In this document: positions 53,413-62,277 of the stretch, one piece after another
How positions within the stretch are numbered: position 1 is the first letter of the stretch
Layout of the letters: every line of letters begins with the position of its first letter
Source of the DNA: Alistipes sp.
GTDB taxonomy: Bacteria > Bacteroidota > Bacteroidia > Bacteroidales > Rikenellaceae
Length of the DNA stretch: 64,000 bases
NCBI RefSeq assembly: GCF_020026455.1
Contig: NZ_JAHHQJ010000014.1
Span: 6,153-70,152 of the forward strand
Direction: 5' to 3'
Notes under the pieces: generated by a model
What the model saw: only the letters and a program-made list of their open reading frames with translations
Told to the model about the DNA's origin: nothing
Database searches by the model: none
Translations under genes and position numbers: made by a program

Positions 53413-55632
53413 TTAACTCAATCTTCGTTTGACACTCTCTATACCCTTTATCTTGCGCATCTTGTCCATCACAGCGCGGAGGCTTTCGGCATCCTTCACA
53501 TAGAGGCTGACGTTGCCTTCGACGATGCCGTCGTGGCTGTGGATGTTCACCTCCCGGAAATTGATGTTGAAATCGGCGCTCACGACCTTCGCCAGATCGA
53601 GCAGCAGCCCCTGCCGATCGATGCCGCGCAACTCCGTGGTCACCAGATAGGACATGGCCTTGTGCTGCGACCATTTGATCTCCTCTTTGACGATGTTGCG
53701 GCCGAACTGCGACGCGAGCCGGTTCAACTCGTCGCACGTGGCTTTGTGCACGATGATTTTCCCCGTAGCGGGGTCTCGATACCCTACCACCTTGTCGCCC
53801 GGAATCGGCTTGCAGCACTCCGCAATTTCGAACTGCGGTTCCGGGGTCGTAGCCTCCTCTGCCGGCGCTATTTCGCCCGGAATCGGGGTGTCGTCCGCCT
53901 CATCCTCCTTCTTCTTGGGGATGAAGAGGGTCCAGAATTTGAGTATCTTGCTCTTGGCGTTGACCTTGAGGGCTTTGTCCAGGTTGTCGAGCGAGACGAT
54001 TCCCGCCCCGATCTTGCTGTATAGCTCCTCCTTGTTGTTGCTGTCGTAAATGGGTGTTATCTTGCGCAATACGCGTCCGCTCAACTTGATGTTCAGCGAC
54101 TTCATCTTTTCGTCGAGCAGCTGCATGCCCCGCTCGATGTTGTTCTGCCGTTCGCGCTTGAGGAAACTCTTGATCGCCTGTTTGGCCTTGGCCGTGGTGA
54201 CCGTTTCGAGCCATTCGGGCTTGGGACGGGCGTTGTCGGCCGTGATGATCTCGATCTGATCACCGCTGTTGATCTGCGTGGTGATCGGTTCGAGCTTGTG
54301 GTTGATCTTGGCGCTGATGGCGCTGTTTCCGATCTTCGAGTGGATGTCGTAGGCGAAGTCGAGGGCCGTGGCTCCGAACGGCATTTTTCGGGCTTCACCC
54401 TTGGGTGTAAATACCACTATCTCCGATGTATACAGCGATAACTTAAAGTTGTCCAGGAAGTCCACGGCATTTTCCGTCGGACTGTTCAGCGCCGCTCGGA
54501 TCTGTTTCAGCCACTTGTCGAATTCGTCCTCGTCCTGCGAAATGGTCGCATGCTTGTATTTCCAGTGAGCGGCGAATCCGCGTTCGGCGATGTCCTCCAT
54601 GCGCTGCGTGCGGATCTGCACCTCGACCCACACACCGTCGGGTCCCATCACCGTCGAGTGCAGCGCCTCGTATCCGTTGGCCTTGGGCATCGAAATCCAG
54701 TCCCTTAGCCGGTCGGGCTTGGGGGTGTAGATGTCGGTGATCGTGGAGTAAATCTGCCAGCACTGTGTCTTTTCCGAGGGGAACGGCAGGGGTTTGAAGA
54801 CGATGCGGATGGCAAACAGGTCGTAAATCTCCTCGAACGAGATCTGCTTGCGCTGCATCTTGCTCCAGATCGAGTAGACGCTCTTCACGCGTCCCGAGAT
54901 CTCGTAGTTGATGTTGTCGCGGTTGAGCGAGGCGATGATCGGGGCGTTGAACTTGTTGATGAATTCCCGGCGCGAAGCCTCGCTTTCCTGCAGTTTCTGC
55001 GTGATTTCGGCATACTGCTGCGGGAATCGGTACTTCATGCAGAGATCCTCCAGCTCGCTCTTGATCGAGAAGAGCCCCAGCCGATAGGCCAGCGGAGCGA
55101 AGAGGTAGATCGTCTCGCCGGTGATCTTGATCTGCTTGTTCATCGGCATGGCACCCAGCGTGCGCATGTTGTGCAGCCGGTCGGCGATCTTTATCAGAAT
55201 TACCCGTACATCGTCCGAGAGGGTGAGGAGTACCTTGCGAAAATATTCGGCCTGTTCGGAGGTGTCGGCGTTGAACACGCCGGACATCTTCGTCAGTCCG
55301 TCGACCATCGAGGCGATTTTCGGTCCGAAGATGCGTTCCATGTCCTCCACGGTGTATTCCGTGTCCTCCACGACGTCGTGCAGCAGGGCCGCGACGACCG
55401 ATTTCACCCCCAGCCCGATCTCCTTGATGACGATCATGGCTACTGCAATAGGATGCAGGAGGTACGGCTCGCCGGAGCGGCGCCTTACCCCCTCGTGTGC
55501 CTCCTTGGCCAGGAAAAAAGCACGTTTGATGAAGTTCCAGTCCTCGTCGTTCTTGCAGATTTTGGTGCACGCGAGGAGCAGGTCATCCCATTTCTCCTTT
55601 ATAAGGGTTTCATCCTCAGCAGTATATCCCAT
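53413..55632 (-). CDS. relA: RelA/SpoT (p)ppGpp synthetase/hydrolase
   Basis: RRSGEPYLLHP, LLHDVVEDT (HD), KIADRLHNMRT, GRVKS..IYDLFAIR, TGS domain DFAYDIHSKIG. Confidence 0.96.
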   Translation of the reverse strand: MGYTAEDETLIKEKWDDLLLACTKICKNDEDWNFIKRAFFLAKEAHEGVRRRSGEPYLLHPIAVAMIVIKEIGLGVKSVVAALLHDVVEDTEYTVEDMERIFGPKIASMVDGLTKMSGVFNADTSEQAEYFRKVLLTLSDDVRVILIKIADRLHNMRTLGAMPMNKQIKITGETIYLFAPLAYRLGLFSIKSELEDLCMKYRFPQQYAEITQKLQESEASRREFINKFNAPIIASLNRDNINYEISGRVKSVYSIWSKMQRKQISFEEIYDLFAIRIVFKPLPFPSEKTQCWQIYSTITDIYTPKPDRLRDWISMPKANGYEALHSTVMGPDGVWVEVQIRTQRMEDIAERGFAAHWKYKHATISQDEDEFDKWLKQIRAALNSPTENAVDFLDNFKLSLYTSEIVVFTPKGEARKMPFGATALDFAYDIHSKIGNSAISAKINHKLEPITTQINSGDQIEIITADNARPKPEWLETVTTAKAKQAIKSFLKRERQNNIERGMQLLDEKMKSLNIKLSGRVLRKITPIYDSNNKEELYSKIGAGIVSLDNLDKALKVNAKSKILKFWTLFIPKKKEDEADDTPIPGEIAPAEEATTPEPQFEIAECCKPIPGDKVVGYRDPATGKIIVHKATCDELNRLASQFGRNIVKEEIKWSQHKAMSYLVTTELRGIDRQGLLLDLAKVVSADFNINFREVNIHSHDGIVEGNVSLYVKDAESLRAVMDKMRKIKGIESVKRRLS

Positions 55633-55635
55633 AGA

Positions 55636-56652
55636 CTACTCCTGTTTTGCGGTCTTCATGGCTTCGCGGACCTTGGTTTCGATTTCGTTACGCAGCTCTT
55701 CGTCGTTTTTCAGCAGTTCCTTGACGGCGTCGCGTCCCTGTCCGATCTTGCGGTCGCCGTAGGAGAACCACGATCCGGCCTTCTTGATCACGCCGTAATC
55801 GACGCCGATGTCGATGATCTCGCCGATCTTCGAGATACCTTCGCCGAACATGATGTCGAACTCCGCGCGTTTGAACGGGGGTGCCACCTTGTTCTTCACG
55901 ACCTTGACCTTCGTGCGGGTTCCCAGCTGGTCCTCGCCGTCCTTGATGACCGACATGCGGCGGATGTCGATACGCACCGAAGCGTAGAATTTCAGCGCAT
56001 TGCCGCCCGTGGTGGTCTCGGGGTTGCCGTATACGACGCCGATCTTGTCGCGCAGCTGGTTGATGAAGATGCAGACGGTCTTGGTCTTCGAGATACTCGA
56101 CGTGAGTTTGCGCAGCGCCTGCGACATGAGGCGGGCCTGGAGTCCCATCTTCGAGTCGCCCATCTCGCCCTCGATCTCGGCTTTGGGCGTCAGAGCCGCC
56201 ACGGAGTCGATGACGATGATGTCGATGGCGCTCGAGCGGATCAGCGAGTCGGCGATTTCAAGAGCCTGCTCGCCGTTGTCGGGCTGCGAAATGAGCAGGT
56301 TGTCGACATCCACACCCAGTTTCTGGGCATAGAAACTGTCGAATGCGTGCTCGGCGTCGATGAATGCCGCGATGCCTCCGGCCTTCTGGGCCTCGGCGAT
56401 GGCGTGAATCGCCAGCGTGGTCTTACCCGACGACTCGGGTCCGTAAATCTCCACGACACGCCCCTTGGGATAGCCGCCTACGCCGAGCGCCATGTCGAGT
56501 GTGATCGAACCCGTCGGGATAACCGGAATGTCGTTCACTTCGGTGCTGTTCATGCGCATGATCGAGCCTTTGCCGAAGTCCTTTTCTATTTTCTGCATCA
56601 CTGCGTCCAGCACCTTGAGCTTGTCCGCGTTTACCTGTACTTTTTCTGCCAT
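55636..56652 (-). CDS. recA: Recombinase A
   Basis: [51 protein letters not shown]. Confidence 0.99.
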
Positions 56653-56860
56653 TATTGTCTTGTTTTTTATTGTTCACACTGTTTTGCTTCGCCGCCGTTC
56701 GCCCTCGGGCCGGCGGCGGGAGCCTTTGGTTTGCCGCCTCTGCGGCAGCAACACCCCGCCTCGGGCGGGGATTGAGGTGCTGCGGACCAGGACACGACGC
56801 CGGCGGCGGCGAATACGGTGGTCGCATACACCCCTGCACGTTGGAGATCCTGCCTGACCC

Positions 56861-57322
56861 CTACTTGTAGGAGTCGATGATCTGCCGGTAGTGGTTCTTG
56901 GTGTCCACCTTGGTGAAAATCTTCTCGATGCGCCCCTCTGCGTCGATCACGAACGTCGTGCGCAGCACCCCCATGTACTTGCGGCCGTACATCGACTTCT
57001 CGGCCCACACGCCGTAGGCTTCGCACATCGAGTGGTCGGAGTCGGAGAGCAGCGTGAAATTCAGGGCGTGCTTGTCGCAGAAATTGCGGTGCGACTTTTC
57101 GCTGTCGGGGCTTACACCGATGATTCGGAAATCCATCCGTTCCAGCTCGGCCTTGCCGTCGCGCAGGCTTTGGGCTTCGAGCGTACAACCCGAGGTGTTG
57201 TCCTTGGGGTAGAAATAGAGTATCGTGCGCTGTCCCTTCAGGTCGGCAAGCGTCAGAGGCTCACCGTCTTGAGTCGTGGACTTGAAATCGGGGGCCATCT
57301 CCCCCACCTGCAACTGTGTCAT
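56861..57322 (-). CDS. bcp: Thioredoxin-dependent peroxiredoxin BCP
   Basis: LYFYPKDNTSGCTLEA, IGVSPDS, RTTFVID. Confidence 0.95.
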   Translation of the reverse strand: MTQLQVGEMAPDFKSTTQDGEPLTLADLKGQRTILYFYPKDNTSGCTLEAQSLRDGKAELERMDFRIIGVSPDSEKSHRNFCDKHALNFTLLSDSDHSMCEAYGVWAEKSMYGRKYMGVLRTTFVIDAEGRIEKIFTKVDTKNHYRQIIDSYK

Positions 57323-57406
57323 AGCGTTTCCCGATAAAGAGATTATTTTCTCAAAGGTATGAATTTTCCGGCGATTTTCATGCTTTGCGAGCGACTTTTT
57401 TGCGCT

Positions 57407-57619
57407 CTAATCCCATTGGTAGGTCACTTCGATCTGCTCGTTGAACTCCTCCTGCGTGGTGTTGAGCCGGTGCAGACAGGCCGGGCACCGGATGGCCGTT
57501 TCGGTCTCGACATACTCGCCGCACCCGACGCACATCGGCAGCAGGCCGTAGCCCGGCTGCATGGAGTGCTCGAACTGCGCTCCGCAGTGCTTGCACCTGA
57601 TTTTGTAAGCTGTTCCCAT
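57407..57619 (-). CDS. 70-aa protein with three CxxC pairs (putative zinc ribbon)
   Basis: CKHC, CVGC, CPAC; ATG in A-rich context; host-like codons. Confidence 0.75.
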   Translation of the reverse strand: MGTAYKIRCKHCGAQFEHSMQPGYGLLPMCVGCGEYVETETAIRCPACLHRLNTTQEEFNEQIEVTYQWD

Positions 57620-57663
57620 TGTCGTTTTGTTTTTGGTTCACGCTGCAAAGGAACAGCCTGCGA

Positions 57664-57680
57664 GTGACAGGTTGTGACAC
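57664..57680. promoter_or_regulatory. Putative WYL-regulator operator (GTGACA-GGTTG-TGACAC)
   Basis: One mismatch to the palindrome at 58844-58860; 10 nt from a -7-like element (TTCCTTTG on the - strand, 57646-57653). Confidence 0.55.
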
Positions 57681-57713
57681 ATGGGTAAAAAAATGGCAAA
57701 GGTCGTGCAAAAC

Positions 57714-58616
57714 TCACATGTTCGGAGTGTTTGCCGCAATATATTCGCGGATATAGCCCGTCAGTTCGGGTGAGTCGACGATGCGGATGTCGTCCAGCAG
57801 CCCCACGACGAAGCGTCCCACCCCGGCCATTCCGGCCACCTGCGTGTCGAGCGACCAGCGTCCGCGGCCCAGCGGTTTCACGTCGCGTTCGGCCAGCGGA
57901 TACTCCTCGCACAGCAGGTTGTAGGCCAGCATTCCCAGCTCCAGCCGCACGCGGTGACGCACTCCGCCGTGCATGCGGAAGGCGTCGATGAATCCCTCGC
58001 GGTGGGCTTCCCGGTGCTCCCATGCCGCTTCGGAGAGTTCGACGGATCCGATGCGCGCGGTTTTGAAGAGTTTGTTCGTGTGGCTTTCGAGGTCGTAGCA
58101 CCACACCTGCACATAGTTGGTCGTGAAGGCGAAAGGTTCTACCCTGCGGTCGCGCACTTCGCCGCCGTGGGCCGACTGGTAGCCGTGCAGCACGGCCTGT
58201 TGCTCCTGCTCGATGGCCTCGATCAACCGCCGGATGTTCGGGGCGTTCTTGCCCCGCACGACGCTGTCGGCCAGCGTCTTGTTGTCGTATACGGAGTAGA
58301 GCTTGCGCTTGAGGTTCTGCTTCAGCAGGTTGGTGTCGTCGATATTCTCGATGGCGTTTTTCAGGATCACGGCCTCCTCCTCGGTGAAGTGCACCAGCTG
58401 CGAGATGTCGCGGAAGTGCGGCGACTCCTTGTCGAGACGGATGCAGTCTCTCGATTTCTTGATCACAAATCCTGCCTCGCGGAAGGTGTCGATATAGCGG
58501 TAGATCGTGCGGCGCGACATCTGGAGCCGTTCGGCCAGCTGGTCGACGTTGTAGGTGGTGTTTGCCGTCAGCAGCTTCATGAGCCGCAGCAGGCGTTCGA
58601 GTTTGGGTTGGTCCAT
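57714..58616 (-). CDS. HTH-WYL-WCX transcriptional regulator (PafC/DriD/YafY-like)
   Basis: HTH LAERLQMSRRTIYRYIDTFREAGF; WYL RRVEPFAF..VWCYD..LFKTARI. Confidence 0.9.
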   Translation of the reverse strand: MDQPKLERLLRLMKLLTANTTYNVDQLAERLQMSRRTIYRYIDTFREAGFVIKKSRDCIRLDKESPHFRDISQLVHFTEEEAVILKNAIENIDDTNLLKQNLKRKLYSVYDNKTLADSVVRGKNAPNIRRLIEAIEQEQQAVLHGYQSAHGGEVRDRRVEPFAFTTNYVQVWCYDLESHTNKLFKTARIGSVELSEAAWEHREAHREGFIDAFRMHGGVRHRVRLELGMLAYNLLCEEYPLAERDVKPLGRGRWSLDTQVAGMAGVGRFVVGLLDDIRIVDSPELTGYIREYIAANTPNM

Positions 58617-58837
58617 GATTTATTCGGAGACAGACGGCTGTTCGCCGTGCAGGGGTCGTAAATTAGTCATAACGGAAGTGCGGAGATCGTTCTTGCCTGC
58701 GATTCGAAAAAGAGGTTTTTCGGATTCCGGAGCGGAGGTATCCGGAACCATTGCACGGCAGTTTGCGCTTCCTGCAAACGAAGCAATCGATAGAATGACG
58801 AACGATTTCATGCTGTTTTTTTGCAAAGATAGAAAAA

Positions 58838-58866
58838 AAAGTCGTGACAGACCATGTCACGACTTT
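58838..58866. promoter_or_regulatory. 12-bp-arm palindrome AAAGTCGTGACA-N5-TGTCACGACTTT: putative WYL operator and/or dnaA terminator
   Basis: Perfect inverted repeat; T-run follows on the - strand; TATCTTTG -7 element at 58824-58831 on the - strand. Confidence 0.65.
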
Positions 58867-58893
58867 CTGTTTGTATCGCCCCCCCCCTCCGCA

Positions 58894-60306
58894 CTATTGG
58901 GCGAGGACCTTTTTCTCAATCTCCTCGACCTGACGGCGGAACGCCTTGTCGGTCTCGATGAGGTTCGTCACGGCCTTGCACGAGTGGAGGACCGTGGCGT
59001 GGTTGCGGCCTCCGATGGCTGCCCCGATCGTTGTCAGCGGCGCCTTGGTGTGCTGCTTGGCCAGATACATGGCGATCTGCCGGGCCTGGGCTATTTCGCG
59101 TGTGCGCTCCGTGGAGTTGAAGCGCGCGAAGTCCAGATTGAGGTATTCGCACACGACCTCGATGATGTGGTCGATGGTGATTTCCTTCTGATAGAGCTTC
59201 ACGTAGACCTTCAGGATCTCCTTGGCCAGCGACGTGGTGATCTTGCGCCCGAGGAACGAGGCGTTGGCCACCAGCGACGACAGGGCGCCTTCGATTTCCC
59301 GCACGTTGGCCGAGATGTTGTCCGCCAGATAGGTCACCACATCGTCCGTGATCTGCGCCCCGAGCTTCTGCGCCTTGGCGCGTATGATCTTGAGCTTGGT
59401 GTCGTAGTCCGGCGTGTTGAGCTGTGCCGACAATCCCCATTTGAAGCGGGTCAGCAGTCGCTGTTCGATGTCCTTGAGTTCCACGGGCGGCTTGTCCGAC
59501 GTGAGGATCAGCTGCTTGCCCGCCAGCTGCAGGTGGTTGAATATGTTGAAGAACGCGTTCTGCGTACCGGTCTTTCCCGTCAGCTCCTGGATGTCGTCGA
59601 TGATCAGCACGTCGATCATCTGGTAGAAGTGGATGAAGTCGGGAATCTCGCCGTTCTTGTAGGCTGTCTGGAACTGCGCCTGGAACTTGTTCATCGAGAC
59701 GTAGAGCACCTGCAACTCCGGGTGTCGCTGACGCACCTCGTGGCCGATCGACTGCACGATGTGGGTCTTCCCCAGTCCCGAGTCTCCATAGATATAGAGG
59801 GGGTTGAAGGGGTTGTTTCCCGGGTTCACGGCCACGGACATGCCCGCCGAGCGGGCCAGTCGGTTGCATTCACCCTCGATGAAGGTCGCAAACGTGAGGT
59901 TTGGATTCAGCTGCGGGTCGATGATTATTTTCTTGAGTCCGGGAATTACGAACGGATTCTTTATATTTGCGGTGTTGGTCTGCGTGTTGAAGCGCGAGAT
60001 GGCCGTCGTGTCGGAATCCGCCGCCACGGGGACGGCCTGTGCGCTCGTTCGGGGCACGGCGTAGTGGAGCCGGGTCTGCTGGCCGTAGAGCTGCGAGATG
60101 ATCGGTTTGAGGAACGGGATGTAGTTCTTCTCGATCTGACGGACGTAGCTTTCGTTGGGGACCCTCAAACGAAGCGTCGTTCCGTCGAATTCGAGCGGAA
60201 CGATGGGCTGAAACCACTTTTCGAACTCCTCCGCGGAGGTTCGGGCCTTGATCTGGTCCAAGCAGTTTTGCCATATATCGCTATATGTCCGAGAGTTGTT
60301 TAGCAT
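58894..60306 (-). CDS. dnaA: Chromosomal replication initiator protein
   Basis: NPLYIYGDSGLGKTH, IDDIQ, RLLTRFKWGL, NVREIEGAL, domain IV GGRNHATVLHS. Confidence 0.98.
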   Translation of the reverse strand: MLNNSRTYSDIWQNCLDQIKARTSAEEFEKWFQPIVPLEFDGTTLRLRVPNESYVRQIEKNYIPFLKPIISQLYGQQTRLHYAVPRTSAQAVPVAADSDTTAISRFNTQTNTANIKNPFVIPGLKKIIIDPQLNPNLTFATFIEGECNRLARSAGMSVAVNPGNNPFNPLYIYGDSGLGKTHIVQSIGHEVRQRHPELQVLYVSMNKFQAQFQTAYKNGEIPDFIHFYQMIDVLIIDDIQELTGKTGTQNAFFNIFNHLQLAGKQLILTSDKPPVELKDIEQRLLTRFKWGLSAQLNTPDYDTKLKIIRAKAQKLGAQITDDVVTYLADNISANVREIEGALSSLVANASFLGRKITTSLAKEILKVYVKLYQKEITIDHIIEVVCEYLNLDFARFNSTERTREIAQARQIAMYLAKQHTKAPLTTIGAAIGGRNHATVLHSCKAVTNLIETDKAFRRQVEEIEKKVLAQ

Positions 60307-60343
60307 GACAGAGGGTTGTACTGTTTTTTTGACGTGACAAAGT

Positions 60344-60352
60344 TGTGAATAA
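60344..60352 (+). promoter_or_regulatory. DnaA box (TGTGAATAA) in the dnaA promoter region
   Basis: Reverse complement TTATTCACA fits TTWTNCACA; 38 nt upstream of the dnaA start. Confidence 0.65.
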
Positions 60353-60534
60353 TTTTGCAAAAAGATTTTCGTTTTCGTGTTGCAGATCTCCTTTTTTTGT
60401 ATATAGAAAAACAACGGTTTCCGGTGCCCGAATTTTAACTCCCTGATAGTGAATTATCGAATTTTATTTATTATATTTGCATATAATTTTTTTGGGACAT
60501 CCGAAGTTAAACTATAAATAAAACTAATGAACTT

Positions 60535-62277
60535 ATGGCAAACGAATTGGAACAATTGGTTCTGAACAAGGCCCAGAGCTGGCTCGACGGCCACTATGAC
60601 GAGGCGACGAAGAAACAGGTCAAATGCCTGATGGATAATGATATGACCGAACTTGTCGAGAGTTTCTACAAGGATCTTGAATTTGGCACGGGCGGCCTGC
60701 GGGGCATCATGGGCGTGGGCTCCAACCGCATGAATGTCTATACGGTGGGAGCCGCCACGCAGGGTCTTTCGAACTACCTGAAGAAGAACTTCGCGGGCGA
60801 GCAGGTTCGTGTGGCCGTAGCCCACGACAGCCGCAACAATTCGCGCATGTTCGCCGAGCGTGTGGCCGATATTTTCGCCTCGAACGGGTTCCGGGTCTTT
60901 CTGTTCGACGCGCTCCGTCCGACGCCGGAATTGAGCTTCGCCATCCGCGAACTGAAGTGCCATTCGGGCGTGGTCGTCACGGCTTCGCACAACCCCAAGG
61001 AGTACAACGGCTACAAGGCCTACTGGACCGACGGGGCGCAGGTCACCGAGCCGCACGACAAGAACATCATCGCCGAGGTTGCCAAGATCACCGACGTGGA
61101 TATGATCGAGATGGGCAAAAATCCCGAAAATATCACCATCCTCGACGAGCAGTTCGATGAAATCTATCTGAACAAGGTGCACGAACTCTCGCTGTCGCCC
61201 GAAAGCGTCCGGAAGCACCACGACATGAAGATCGTCTATTCGCCGATGCACGGTGCGGGAGTGCGGCTGGTTCCGGCGTCGCTGAAGAAATTCGGCTTCA
61301 CGAACGTGATTCTGGTGAAGGAGCAGTCGGTCATCGACGGCGACTTCCCCACCGTCGAGTCCCCCAACCCCGAGGAGCGCAAGACGATGTCCATGGCCAT
61401 TGACCTGGCGGCGAAGGAGGGTGCCGACCTGGTTCTGGCCACCGACCCCGATTCGGACCGCATCGGCGTGGCGCTGCGCAACAAGAAGGGCGAATACGTG
61501 TTGCTGAACGGCAACCAGACCCTCGTGCTGCTGCTGAGCTACCAGCTGACCCGCTGGGCCGAGCGCGGCGAGCTGGACGGCAGCCAGTATGTCGTCAAGA
61601 CCATCGTCACCTCGCAGATGGCCAACGCCGTGGCCGACTATTTCAAGGTGAAGTGCTACGACTGCCTCACGGGCTTCAAGTATATCGCCAAGATCATCCG
61701 CGAGAACGAAGGCAAGGCCAAGTATATCGGTGGCGGCGAGGAGTCGTTCGGTTACCTGGCGGGCGACTACGTGCGTGACAAGGACGCCGTTTCGGCCTGC
61801 TCGCTGGCTGCTGAGGCCGCCGCATGGGCGATGGATACGATGGGCCTGACGCTCTACGAGTGGCTGCAGGAGCTCTACGTGAAATATGGCTTCTACCGCG
61901 AGGGCCTCGTTTCGGTGGTCCGCAAGGGCAAGGAGGGCGCCGAGCTGATCCAGAAGATGATGGTCGACTTCCGGGCCGAACCGCCCAAGGCGATCCTCGG
62001 CTCGCCGGTGGTGAAGATCAACGATTTCCTGTCGCTCGAAACGCTCGACGTCGAGACGGGTGCCAAGACCCCTATCGAGCAGGACCGGAGTAACGTGCTG
62101 CAGTGGTTCACGGCCGACGGCACGACCGTTTCGGTGCGTCCCTCGGGCACGGAGCCCAAAATCAAGTTCTACTTCGGGGTGAAGGCGCCGCTGGCTTCGG
62201 TCGCCGATTTCGACACGACGCTGGCTGAGCTCGATGCCAAGATCGAAGGCATCAAGCGAGACCTCAAACTGGAGTAA
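60535..62277 (+). CDS. pgm: Alpha-D-phosphohexomutase (phosphoglucomutase/phosphomannomutase)
   Basis: FGTGGLRG, TASHNP, ATDPDSDR, GEESFG, RPSGTEPKIK; TATATTTG at 60472-60479. Confidence 0.92.
   Translation: MANELEQLVLNKAQSWLDGHYDEATKKQVKCLMDNDMTELVESFYKDLEFGTGGLRGIMGVGSNRMNVYTVGAATQGLSNYLKKNFAGEQVRVAVAHDSRNNSRMFAERVADIFASNGFRVFLFDALRPTPELSFAIRELKCHSGVVVTASHNPKEYNGYKAYWTDGAQVTEPHDKNIIAEVAKITDVDMIEMGKNPENITILDEQFDEIYLNKVHELSLSPESVRKHHDMKIVYSPMHGAGVRLVPASLKKFGFTNVILVKEQSVIDGDFPTVESPNPEERKTMSMAIDLAAKEGADLVLATDPDSDRIGVALRNKKGEYVLLNGNQTLVLLLSYQLTRWAERGELDGSQYVVKTIVTSQMANAVADYFKVKCYDCLTGFKYIAKIIRENEGKAKYIGGGEESFGYLAGDYVRDKDAVSACSLAAEAAAWAMDTMGLTLYEWLQELYVKYGFYREGLVSVVRKGKEGAELIQKMMVDFRAEPPKAILGSPVVKINDFLSLETLDVETGAKTPIEQDRSNVLQWFTADGTTVSVRPSGTEPKIKFYFGVKAPLASVADFDTTLAELDAKIEGIKRDLKLE

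What the first reader, a model, noticed from the sequence alone, without database searches (positions are those of the whole stretch)
57407..58866. HTH-WYL regulator and a 70-aa triple-CxxC protein share an operator, between dnaA and bcp-recA
Seen: the perfect palindrome GTCGTGACA-N5-TGTCACGAC (58841-58863) lies 12 nt (measured from its GTGACA core) upstream of a consensus -7 element heading the WYL unit. A near copy GTGACA-N5-TGACAC (57664-57680) lies 10 nt upstream of a non-consensus -7 element (TTCCTTTG) in front of the small Cys-rich gene. Known: HTH-WYL-WCX proteins (PafBC, DriD) sense ssDNA/nucleic acids and activate LexA-independent damage responses, while BrxR and CapW repress defence genes; Bacteroidota are generally reported to lack LexA. 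Inference: this is a two-gene damage- or phage-responsive module whose output is an uncharacterised zinc-ribbon protein. The degenerate -7 element suggests activator dependence. Its position directly upstream of, and co-oriented with, bcp-recA allows read-through induction.
Basis: partly seen in the sequence, partly recalled or inferred. Interest (0 to 1): 0.72.

Follow-up and report, generated by a model that had tools for sequence, protein, structure and literature searches.

The report
WYL damage-type switch beside Alistipes recA
In the gut bacterium Alistipes, a DNA-binding sensor protein of the WYL family has matching docking sites in its own promoter and in the promoter of a tiny zinc-binding protein that leads into the recA repair gene, so it is probably this LexA-less group's version of a known DNA-damage switch.

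Summary
The window lies in an Alistipes genome. On the minus strand the genes run dnaA, a 63-aa remnant ORF, HTH-WYL-WCX regulator, 70-aa zinc-ribbon gene (ZR), bcp, recA.

The ZR site is a box, TGWCA-N5-TGWCA. It occurs upstream of ZR in nearly all Alistipes loci examined. In 84 of 84 distinct sequences it ends exactly 15 nt before the TTTG of the -7 promoter element.

The palindrome upstream of WYL is the dnaA intrinsic terminator (dG -18.5 kcal/mol, T8). It is also a sequence-conserved box. In 22 of 80 related species the inner six base pairs never vary, the loop varies completely, and the outer stem pairs covary.

The box matches the published DriD box (CGACA-N5-TGTCG) and DdaA box (CGWCA-N5-TGWCG). 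The two arginines that read G and C in DriD (R37, R41) are invariant here (R36, R40).

No terminator separates ZR from bcp/recA in 96 of 98 loci, so read-through is plausible.

The same box also lies exactly 20 nt upstream of sigma54-type promoters of hsp20 and clpB, which is unexplained.

Verdict: a new member of the DriD/DdaA kind in Bacteroidales. Whether it activates or represses, what it senses, and what ZR does were not tested.

The parts
58894..60306 (-). dnaA (470 aa). This is the upstream gene whose transcript the palindrome terminates.
   Evidence: Pfam Bac_DnaA 1.2e-53, Bac_DnaA_C 1.3e-26, DnaA_N 2e-10.
58836..58868 (-). Hairpin of the dnaA intrinsic terminator (14 pairs, 5-nt loop), followed by a T8 run.
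   Evidence: Terminator scan. dG -18.5 kcal/mol, z -4.96. Outer stem pairs covary in 22 relatives.
58845..58859 (.). Box 1: TGACA-TGGTC-TGTCA, inside the terminator stem. It is the proposed autoregulatory WYL operator.
   Evidence: The inner six pairs are invariant while the loop is fully variable, in 22 of 80 species. The geometry matches the DriD and DdaA boxes.
58824..58831 (-). -7 promoter element TATCTTTG of the WYL transcription unit.
   Evidence: It matches the Bacteroidota consensus TAnnTTTG. It is conserved as part of the hairpin, T-run, TATCTTTG module. TTTG begins 17 nt after box 1.
58620..58811 (-). 63-aa ORF, the 5' remnant of a lipoprotein (alpha/beta-hydrolase-like) gene. Probably not functional.
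   Evidence: No family hits. The full-length gene is 316 aa in L040 and truncated to 152 aa in L031.
57714..58616 (-). wHTH-WYL-WCX regulator (300 aa). The recognition helix is SRRTIYRY, with R36 and R40.
   Evidence: R36 and R40 are invariant and align with DriD R37 and R41.
57665..57679 (.). Box 2: on the coding strand TGTCA-CAACC-TGTCA. This is the operator of the zinc-ribbon promoter.
   Evidence: Present in 28 of 30 loci of the first set and almost all of the second set. The 15-nt offset to TTTG holds in 84 of 84 distinct sequences.
57646..57653 (-). -7 promoter element TTCCTTTG of the zinc-ribbon gene.
   Evidence: Conserved as GTtccTTTGcA across the genus. More distant species have TTAC, TACC or TACT forms.
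57407..57619 (-). 70-aa zinc-ribbon protein. Invariant residues are C9, C12, C45 and C48. The middle CxxC lies in a variable loop.
   Evidence: Found only in Alistipes, with no family or fold assignment beyond a zinc ribbon.
57352..57359 (-). -7 element TACCTTTG, the separate promoter of bcp-recA.
   Evidence: A TAnnTTTG box is present in this spacer in 88 of 98 loci. A terminator is present in only 2 of 98.
56861..57322 (-). bcp (peroxiredoxin, 153 aa). Probable read-through target.
   Evidence: Pfam AhpC-TSA 1.2e-39. Order conserved in relatives.
55636..56652 (-). recA (338 aa). Probable read-through target.
   Evidence: ORF and its conservation in relatives.

Best explanation
The 300-aa protein is a homodimer-type wHTH-WYL-WCX regulator of the DriD/DdaA kind. 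Its recognition helix (SRRTIYRY, R36 and R40) reads the G and C of each TGWCA half-site of a TGWCA-N5-TGWCA box.

One box is fused at a fixed 15 nt to the -7 element of the promoter of a 70-aa zinc-ribbon gene. It occupies the place where a -33 element would be. Transcripts from that promoter probably run on into bcp and recA, which also have a promoter of their own.

In the window's subclade a second box forms the loop-proximal stem of the dnaA terminator. It lies 17 nt (15 nt in most relatives) before the TTTG of the promoter of the regulator's own unit. It therefore terminates dnaA transcripts and gives autoregulation.

By analogy with DriD, DdaA and PafBC, single-stranded DNA produced by damage would bind the WYL domain and switch the regulator on. 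That would raise the zinc-ribbon protein and add to bcp-recA expression.

Shown here: the family and fold of the regulator, conservation and geometry of the boxes, the match to published boxes and base-reading residues, and the absence of terminators.

Inferred: that this protein binds the boxes, that it activates rather than represses, that ssDNA is the signal, and what the zinc-ribbon protein does.
For: Regulator:
- Pfam HTH_11 7.8e-10; PADLOC WYL model 8.9e-22.
- A profile of 82 homologues matches PafBC at 9.5e-13 and PafC over its full length at 9e-9.
- Pfam WYL is found in 46 of 82 homologues and WCX in 30 of 82.
- The AlphaFold model has pLDDT 90.3, and its 30 best PDB matches are all PafBC, DriD, BrxR or CapW.

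Box at the zinc-ribbon gene:
- It is present once in 28 of 30 loci of the first set and in almost all loci of the second set.
- In 84 distinct sequences the offset to TTTG is 15 nt in 84 of 84.
- It stays with the zinc-ribbon gene when unrelated genes are inserted after WYL and when WYL is divergent (L028).

Box at WYL:
- 22 of 80 species plus the window have it. The inner pairs are invariant, the loop is fully variable, and outer pairs covary (CG 15, TA 6, GC 1).
- The module follows the WYL unit, not dnaA, where another gene lies between them (L057, L062, L064, L073).

Match to known systems:
- DdaA box is CGWCA-N5-TGWCG and DdaA activates recA (PMC12392091; PMC13010146).
- DriD box is CGACA-N5-TGTCG. 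DriD R37 and R41 read G2 and the G opposite C4; E40 touches C1 (PMC10853764).
- Here R36 and R40 are invariant and align with DriD R37 and R41. Y39 aligns with E40, where the box has T instead of C.
- DriD boxes also lie at a fixed distance from the core element in promoters without a good -35 (PMC13004042).

Read-through: a hairpin plus T-run of dG -10 or better lies between the zinc-ribbon gene and the next gene in only 2 of 98 loci.

Bacteroidales lack both non-canonical LexA groups.
Against: - No binding or expression data exist, and the public RNA runs could not be searched.
- Eight of 30 loci keep the box but have no WYL gene within 1.5 kb. Whether those genomes carry WYL elsewhere could not be checked.
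- 58 of 80 species have no box before WYL.
- bcp and recA have their own -7 box in 88 of 98 loci, so the box-dependent share of recA expression may be small.
- The same box lies at about -54 of sigma54-type promoters of hsp20 and clpB. A DriD-like activator is not expected to work there. This fits a repressor or another binder better.
- Spacing in the regulator's own promoter varies from 13 to 17 nt, which is unlike a strict activator geometry.
- Sequence identity to DriD is only 14-17%. Orthology with DdaA was not tested.
Confidence: 0.7

Rival explanations
1. Same binder, opposite sign. The WYL protein is a CapW/BrxR-type repressor. It sits on all boxes and falls off when its WYL domain binds ssDNA. 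This would derepress the zinc-ribbon gene, its own unit, hsp20 and clpB.
For: - One steric mechanism explains boxes in three different promoter contexts: -31 of a housekeeping-type promoter, variable spacing of 13-17 nt in its own consensus promoter, and -54 of sigma54 promoters.
- CapW is a wHTH-WYL-WCX repressor released from DNA by ssDNA (PMC11662680).
- BrxR and CapW are among the structural matches, and BrxR's WYL domain is the best sequence match to the C-terminal profile (1.7e-4).
Against: - The spacing is invariant: 15 nt in 84 of 84 at the zinc-ribbon promoter and 20 nt at all hsp20/clpB copies. That is more typical of a factor that must touch RNA polymerase.
- The zinc-ribbon promoter has no recognisable -33 element and a weak -7 box in most species.
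- The box and the base-reading residues are of the DriD/DdaA type, and both of those are activators.
- PafBC and DriD are the best structural matches.
Confidence: 0.3
2. The palindrome at 58841-58863 is only the dnaA terminator. Its likeness to the zinc-ribbon operator is chance or shared descent, so there is no autoregulation.
For: - It is a textbook intrinsic terminator: 14-pair stem, dG -18.5 kcal/mol, z -4.96, T8 tail, about 30 nt after the dnaA stop.
- Species without the box have unrelated hairpin terminators at the same place.
- 58 of 80 species lack the box.
- Outer stem pairs covary as expected for an RNA hairpin.
Against: - The inner TGACA/TGTCA plus the adjacent G:C pair are invariant in 22 species while the 5-nt loop is saturated with changes. 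Selection for pairing alone would allow swaps there as it does in the outer pairs.
- The only variant (L062) flips W in both arms and so still reads TGWCA.
- In L057, L062, L064 and L073 the module lies 795-1682 nt after dnaA, directly before WYL.
- L010, L075 and L087 carry a plain second copy of the zinc-ribbon-type box and promoter before the WYL unit.
- The modal spacing to TTTG is 15 nt, the same as at the zinc-ribbon promoter.
Confidence: 0.12
3. The box is bound by another factor, for example the 406-aa sigma54 enhancer-binding protein of this genome acting like FleQ. WYL and the zinc-ribbon gene would merely be targets of that factor.
For: - At hsp20 and clpB, 2-4 half-sites stand in 10-bp phase a fixed 20 nt upstream of sigma54-type promoters, which looks like an enhancer-binding-protein site array.
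- The genome has rpoN and enhancer-binding proteins with Fis-type HTH.
- Loci that lack a neighbouring WYL gene keep the box.
Against: - The box brackets the WYL gene, and it lies between WYL and the zinc-ribbon gene when they are divergent (L028).
- Half-site, spacing and base-reading arginines match DriD and DdaA.
- One covariation case: the only WYL with helix TSYRSIYRY goes with a box flanked TT..AA instead of tG..Ca.
- Other sigma54-like promoters of the genome have no box.
Confidence: 0.1
4. It is a phage-defence regulator (BrxR/CapW-like) and the zinc-ribbon protein is a defence effector.
For: - The PADLOC WYL model is CRISPR-associated.
- BrxR and CapW are structural relatives.
- An earlier AI note says relatives outside Alistipes lie in defence loci (unchecked).
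Against: - No defence gene is in the locus.
- The zinc-ribbon protein and the remnant ORF have no PADLOC hit.
- The context is chromosomal core (dnaA, bcp, recA) and stable across the genus.
- The other targets are chaperone genes.
Confidence: 0.04

Closest known systems
DriD of Caulobacter crescentus (wHTH-WYL-WCX activator of an SOS-independent damage response)
   Same: - Same three-domain fold class.
- The box has the same geometry: CGACA-N5-TGTCG versus TGWCA-N5-TGWCA.
- The two base-reading arginines are at equivalent positions (DriD R37/R41, here R36/R40).
- The box is at a fixed distance from the core promoter element in promoters without a good upstream element.
- There is a site in its own promoter, and targets include recA and a small protein (didA).
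   Different: - Only 14-17% identity.
- Position 1 of the half-site is T, not C, and the residue aligned with DriD E40 is Tyr.
- The promoters are of the Bacteroidota -7/-33 type.
- The small target is a soluble-looking zinc ribbon, not a membrane protein.
- The box also lies before sigma54-type chaperone promoters.
- Nothing has been tested experimentally.
DdaA of Acinetobacter/Moraxellaceae (WYL activator that replaced LexA)
   Same: - Box CGWCA-N5-TGWCG with the same tolerated central W.
- It controls recA and a small damage-induced protein (aciT).
- It is self-regulated in basal lineages only.
- It acts in a clade without LexA.
   Different: - The DdaA box lies about 50 bp upstream of the start site. 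Here it lies about -31 at the zinc-ribbon and WYL promoters and about -54 at hsp20/clpB.
- The regulon here is tiny (4 places in the genome) against up to 20 genes.
- Sequence relationship to DdaA was not tested.
PafBC of Actinobacteria
   Same: - It is the best sequence-profile and structure match.
- It gives LexA-independent control of recA from a promoter where the factor's site replaces the -35 element.
   Different: PafBC is a heterodimer or fusion, uses a half-site-like -26 element with 'sigma adaptation', and controls a large regulon.
CapW / BrxR (WYL repressors of defence operons)
   Same: - Same domain architecture.
- They sense ssDNA, bind a palindromic operator overlapping the promoter, and autoregulate.
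   Different: They repress defence systems encoded next to them. No defence genes are here.
Bacteroides fragilis recA operon (bcp-like gene co-transcribed with recA)
   Same: bcp lies directly upstream of recA and is co-oriented with it. In B. fragilis RT-PCR showed co-transcription with upstream oxygen-damage genes (PMC3025348).
   Different: No WYL gene, box or zinc-ribbon gene is described there. The zinc-ribbon gene was not found in 24 other families of the order.

Membership tests
wHTH-WYL-WCX transcription regulators | [quoted passage not shown] | tested here: met
   Pfam HTH_11 7.8e-10, residues 8-56. The model shows helices 4-17, 24-31 and 35-47 plus a beta hairpin at 52-61.
wHTH-WYL-WCX transcription regulators | Central WYL domain (Sm-like beta barrel) | tested here: met
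   The protein's own Pfam WYL hit is below cut-off (19.2 against 21.8 bits). However, the PADLOC WYL model scores 8.9e-22 and 46 of 82 homologues hit Pfam WYL. The profile matches the WYL domains of PafBC, PafC and BrxR. Foldseek gives E 1e-11 to 1e-6 to PafBC, DriD, BrxR and CapW.
wHTH-WYL-WCX transcription regulators | C-terminal WCX domain | tested here: met
   Thirty of 82 homologues hit Pfam WCX. The profile aligns to PafC through residue 298. The model is confident (pLDDT 94-98) over residues 200-300.
wHTH-WYL-WCX transcription regulators | Binds ssDNA or another nucleic-acid ligand in the WYL domain | not testable with these tools
   Family-invariant Y146, S148 and R188 align with the Y-x-S ... 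R-I pattern of BrxR, CapW and PafC. This says nothing about which ligand is bound.
DriD/DdaA-type homodimeric WYL activators | Two arginines one helical turn apart in the recognition helix that read G2 and the G opposite C4 | tested here: met
   R36 and R40 are invariant in 31 of 31 sequences. The profile alignment puts them on DriD R37 and R41 (residue roles from PMC10853764).
DriD/DdaA-type homodimeric WYL activators | Box xGWCA-N5-TGWCx next to the regulator gene and its targets | tested here: met
   TGWCA-N5-TGWCA lies on both sides of the WYL gene. It is conserved in relatives. Position 1 is T instead of C.
DriD/DdaA-type homodimeric WYL activators | Box at a fixed distance from the core promoter element, in promoters lacking a good upstream element | tested here: met
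   Offset of 15 nt to TTTG in 84 of 84 zinc-ribbon promoters. Modal 15 nt, range 13-17, at the WYL promoter.
DriD/DdaA-type homodimeric WYL activators | Activates transcription of DNA-damage genes (recA and others) after damage | not testable with these tools
   Only architecture is available: the box-promoter is followed by the zinc-ribbon gene, then (bcp) and recA, with no terminator in 96 of 98 loci.
DriD/DdaA-type homodimeric WYL activators | Phylogenetic placement within the DriD or DdaA clade | not tested
Identity to DriD chains is 14-17%.
Rho-independent (intrinsic) terminator, for the palindrome | Stable GC-containing hairpin followed by a T-run, just downstream of a stop codon on the same strand | tested here: met
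   Fourteen-pair stem, loop of 5, T8. dG -18.5 kcal/mol, z -4.96, 0 of 200 shuffles as stable. The stem begins 26 nt after the dnaA stop codon. Outer pairs covary.
LexA / non-canonical LexA SOS box | Motif CTGT-N8-ACAG, GGA-N5-TCC or CTAA-N5-TTAG under an S24-peptidase repressor | tested here: not met
   The box is TGWCA-N5-TGWCA. The published Bacteroidetes motifs differ, and both regulator groups are reported absent from Bacteroidales. One HTH_3 + Peptidase_S24 protein exists elsewhere in the genome, and its targets are unknown.
Sigma54-dependent promoter (hsp20, clpB sites outside the window) | GG and GC dinucleotides 10 nt apart (TGGCAC-N5-TTGCW) | tested here: inconclusive
   clpB has TGGCAGGGGTTTTGC, which is canonical. 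hsp20 has TGGCAyAGGATTTGA, with GA instead of GC. Both are conserved in relatives. rpoN is present. No transcript data were available.

The most novel reading that the evidence does not exclude
In LexA-less Bacteroidales, one ssDNA-sensing WYL protein couples DNA-damage and protein-damage defences. From a box fixed at -31 it would drive a zinc-ribbon checkpoint protein (a functional analogue of DidA/AciT) together with bcp-recA. From the same box fixed 20 nt upstream of sigma54 promoters it would gate the chaperone genes hsp20 and clpB. That would be the first WYL regulator acting on sigma54 promoters. Its operator also doubles as the transcription terminator of dnaA.
Probability: 0.22. Interest if true: 0.78.

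Novelty: new member of a known kind. Interest (0 to 1): 0.55.

Why it matters
How Bacteroidales, a dominant order of the human gut, sense DNA damage is an open question. They lack LexA and the non-canonical LexA proteins of other Bacteroidota (PMC8565304).

This locus offers a concrete and cheap hypothesis to test in culturable Alistipes. The candidate sensor is a DriD/DdaA-like WYL protein. Its box is defined to the base. The predicted regulon is only four promoters, one of which leads into recA.

recA level affects metronidazole tolerance in Bacteroides (PMC3025348), so the regulator may bear on drug tolerance and prophage induction in gut anaerobes.

The terminator-operator overlap and the boxes in front of sigma54 chaperone promoters are unusual architectures. 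They could extend what WYL regulators are known to do.

No paper in the searchable library links WYL proteins to Alistipes or to a Bacteroidales damage response.

Tried and rejected
- **Sigma54 promoter at the zinc-ribbon gene.** The window's copy has GG-N10-GC, but the GG is not conserved in relatives (sequences). Rejected.
- **The 63-aa ORF (58620-58811) as a third gene of the module.** It has no family hit. It is found only in the closest relatives. It is the 5' remnant of an alpha/beta-hydrolase-type lipoprotein gene that is 316 aa in L040 and 152 aa in L031. Rejected as a functional part.
- **A function for the zinc-ribbon protein.**
  - There are no Pfam, NCBIfam or PADLOC hits above cut-off.
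  - There is no PDB sequence match.
  - The AlphaFold model has only pLDDT 64, and Foldseek gives nothing below E 0.35, with generic zinc ribbons such as eS27 as the best matches.
  - One source's name, 'phage Mu Com', is unsupported.
- **Known RNA families.** None found in 55500-60600.
- **A larger regulon.** A weight-matrix scan of the genome finds only the zinc-ribbon, clpB and hsp20 sites above a clear gap.
- **Single-sequence PDB search with the regulator.** It found only generic HTH proteins. A profile was needed.
- **Literature on WYL in Alistipes or Bacteroidales.** Nothing found.
Full report
**1. What is in the window**

All relevant genes are on the minus strand.
- dnaA, 58894-60306.
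- A 33-nt hairpin, 58836-58868, followed by T8.
- A consensus Bacteroidota -7 box, TATCTTTG, 58824-58831.
- A 63-aa ORF, 58620-58811.
- A 300-aa HTH-WYL gene, 57714-58616.
- A 94-nt spacer holding the second site (core 57665-57679) and TTCCTTTG (57646-57653).
- A 70-aa Cys-rich gene, 57407-57619.
- A TACCTTTG box, 57352-57359.
- bcp, 56861-57322 (AhpC-TSA 1.2e-39).
- A 208-nt GC-rich spacer.
- recA, 55636-56652.

**2. Is it more than chance?**

The pattern alone is not enriched. TGWCA-N5-TGWCA occurs at 8 places in the 2.62-Mb genome, against about 6.4 expected. Position and conservation decide the matter.
- Two of the 8 places flank the WYL gene, each just upstream of a -7 box.
- Two more lie before hsp20 and clpB.
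- The stricter form TGWCAYAANNTGWCA occurs 3 times against about 0.14 expected.
- A weight matrix built from orthologous sites finds only the zinc-ribbon, clpB and hsp20 sites above a clear gap.

**3. The organism and the locus in relatives**

The genus is Alistipes.
- The zinc-ribbon gene was found in 33 of 37 genomes of the genus and in none of 24 other families of the order.
- In 80 species-level loci fetched with the WYL protein (70-94% identity), 71 carry the order dnaA, WYL, zinc-ribbon gene, with recA and usually bcp following where the contig extends.
- In many species unrelated genes lie between WYL and the zinc-ribbon promoter. Examples are a beta-carbonic anhydrase, a GNAT, a fumarase-like gene and a fucosidase. 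The box stays with the zinc-ribbon gene.
- In one genome (L028) WYL and a zinc-ribbon paralogue are divergent, with the box in the shared 118-nt spacer and no recA nearby.
- In 8 of 30 loci of the first set the box and zinc-ribbon gene lie before recA without a WYL gene within 1.5 kb.

**4. The zinc-ribbon operator-promoter**

- The box occurs exactly once in 28 of 30 loci of the first set. The other two have a TGACG variant.
- Over 84 distinct sequences the consensus is tG-TGTCAcAA..TG.CA-Ca.....gc.GTtccTTTGcA. The distance from box end to TTTG is 15 nt in 84 of 84.
- The central base of each half-site flips freely (T/T 44, T/A 34, A/T 5, A/A 1). This is why the window's copy looks like a direct repeat and others look palindromic.
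- The box covers the place of the -33 element, and no -33 TTTG is evident.
- The promoter is not of the sigma54 type, because the GG seen in the window is not conserved.

**5. The palindrome upstream of WYL**

It is a genuine intrinsic terminator of dnaA: 14 pairs, dG -18.5 kcal/mol, z -4.96, T8 tail. Species without the box have unrelated terminator hairpins there, and in one (L007) dnaA and WYL are 10 nt apart.

It is also more than a terminator.
- In 22 of 80 species plus the window, the module is sCCG-TGACA-N5-TGTCA-CGGs, then a T-run, then TATCTTTG.
- The five inner pairs and the adjacent G:C are invariant. The single exception flips W in both arms.
- The loop is different in almost every species.
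- Outer pairs covary (CG 15, TA 6, GC 1; GC 17, AT 3).
- Pairing selection alone would allow swaps in the inner stem, so the sequence itself is under selection.
- Where another gene lies between dnaA and WYL (L057, L062, L064, L073), the module stays directly before WYL.
- The modal spacing to TTTG is 15 nt, with a range of 13-17 through T-run length changes. The window has 17.

Other observations on this site:
- L010/L075 and L087 instead carry a plain second copy of the zinc-ribbon-type box-promoter before the WYL unit.
- 58 of 80 species have no box here, so autoregulation is a subclade trait.
- The first gene behind the module is variable cargo. The window's 63-aa ORF is a remnant of a lipoprotein gene.

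**6. The regulator**

- Pfam gives HTH_11 (7.8e-10) and a sub-threshold WYL hit. PADLOC's WYL model gives 8.9e-22.
- A whole-library search finds 1557 representative clusters at 1e-3 or better.
- A profile of 82 full-length homologues matches PafBC (9.5e-13), PafC over its full length (9e-9) and BrxR.
- Pfam WYL is found in 46 of 82 homologues and WCX in 30 of 82.
- The AlphaFold model has pLDDT 90.3. Its 30 best PDB matches are all PafBC, DriD, BrxR or CapW.

**7. Why this protein should bind this box**

Published boxes of two homodimeric WYL activators have the same geometry.
- DdaA: CGWCA-N5-TGWCG (PMC12392091).
- DriD: CGACA-N5-TGTCG within ATACGAC-N7-GTCGTAT (PMC10853764).

In the DriD-DNA structure, R37 and R41 read G2 and the G opposite C4, and E40 touches C1.

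Here R36 and R40 are invariant in the family. They align with DriD R37 and R41, and Y39 aligns with E40. The box keeps G2 and C4 invariant, tolerates W3, and has T instead of C at position 1. That is the position facing the changed residue.

DriD boxes also lie at one fixed distance from the core element in promoters without a good -35 (PMC13004042).

There is one case of covariation. The only orthologue with helix TSYRSIYRY (L028) goes with a box flanked TT..AA rather than tG..Ca. The loci without a neighbouring WYL gene have that same box type.

**8. Output**

*The zinc-ribbon protein.* Only C9, C12, C45 and C48 are invariant. The middle CxxC lies in a variable, low-confidence loop and is lost in divergent members. 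No family or fold beyond a generic zinc ribbon was found. Its function is unknown. A DidA/AciT-like checkpoint role is only an analogy.

*Downstream genes.* Only 2 of 98 loci have a hairpin plus T-run between the zinc-ribbon gene and bcp/recA. In 88 of 98 loci a TAnnTTTG box lies there. So recA probably has a constitutive promoter plus a box-controlled upstream one. In B. fragilis recA is co-transcribed with upstream oxygen-damage genes (PMC3025348).

*Small hydrophobic ORFs.* These lie inside the box-controlled unit in several species.

**9. The unexpected part**

The same box, with the same flanks and spacer, lies 20 nt upstream of sigma54-type promoters of hsp20 and clpB.
- One clpB copy in a relative, GAGTGACAGGTTGTGTCA, matches the window's zinc-ribbon operator, GAGTGACAGGTTGTGACA, except for the free central base of one half-site.
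- The 20-nt spacing holds in the window's genome and in every related lineage examined.
- In the clpB relatives the divergent neighbour is not dnaX, so the site goes with clpB.
- The genome has rpoN and enhancer-binding proteins. Other sigma54-like promoters in the genome lack the box.

How a DriD-like protein would act at about -54 of a sigma54 promoter is unexplained. This favours either a repressor mode or a different binder, and I list both as rivals.

**10. Context of the SOS question**

Both groups of non-canonical LexA are reported absent from Bacteroidales (PMC8565304). This genome nevertheless encodes one HTH_3 + Peptidase_S24 protein on another contig, and its role is unknown.

No paper in the library links WYL proteins with Alistipes or a Bacteroidales damage response.

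Earlier AI notes of this scan on other Alistipes genomes reached a similar reading. I read them after forming mine, and they are not independent evidence.

**11. Verdict**

This is a DriD/DdaA-like WYL regulator with a defined box. It controls a zinc-ribbon gene that leads into bcp-recA and, in this subclade, controls itself through a box that doubles as the dnaA terminator. The sign of regulation, the signal and the function of the zinc-ribbon protein are inferred, not shown.

Noticed in passing
own genome contig C3:49906-49920 (outside the window) and loci L111-L190: TGACA-N5-TGACA lies exactly 20 nt upstream of a sigma54-like promoter (TGGCAyAGGATTTGA) of an Hsp20 gene. It is conserved in three Alistipes lineages with 75-94% Hsp20 identity.
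   Followed up: partly
own genome contig C9:29761-29785 (outside the window) and loci L191-L194: Two to four TGWCA half-sites in 10-bp phase lie exactly 20 nt upstream of a canonical sigma54 promoter (TGGCAGGsGTTTTGC) of clpB. The arrangement is conserved in relatives whose divergent neighbour is not dnaX.
   Followed up: partly
window 58620-58811 (-): The 63-aa ORF coupled to the WYL start is the 5' remnant of an alpha/beta-hydrolase-type lipoprotein gene. That gene is 316 aa in L040 and 152 aa in L031. The gene slot between the box-promoter module and WYL holds different cargo in different species (TM proteins, lipoproteins, a Cys-rich protein).
   Followed up: partly
loci L013-L015, L017, L019, L020 (before the zinc-ribbon gene); L019, L022, L023 (between the zinc-ribbon gene and recA); L010 (before WYL): Small hydrophobic ORFs of about 25-50 aa (for example MLFAILAFIGIGADVICYILGQNSSLK) lie inside the box-controlled transcription units. 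They resemble damage-induced membrane peptides such as SidA, DidA or TisB in size only.
   Followed up: no
own genome contig C25:41291-41959 (+), outside the window: A 223-aa protein with HTH_3 (4.8e-13) and Peptidase_S24 (8.6e-13) domains has the architecture of CI-type or non-canonical LexA repressors. It occurs in an order reported to lack such SOS regulators. A TTCAAA/TTTGAA palindrome lies upstream.
   Followed up: partly
window 56653-56860 (-): The 208-nt spacer between bcp and recA is GC-rich and holds several hairpins (MFE -89.8 kcal/mol, z -2.5). It has no T-run and no Rfam match.
   Followed up: partly
loci L031-L110, between WYL and the zinc-ribbon promoter: This spacer is an insertion hot spot. 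Different species hold a beta-carbonic anhydrase-like gene, a 283-aa GNAT-like gene, a 406-aa phosphatase/sulfatase-like gene, a 477-aa fumarase/aspartase-like gene or a fucosidase-like gene there.
   Followed up: partly
own genome contig C7:64059 (+), outside the window: A 406-aa sigma54 enhancer-binding protein has an AAA+ core and a Fis-type HTH but no N-terminal sensor domain. It is a candidate activator of the hsp20/clpB sigma54 promoters.
   Followed up: no
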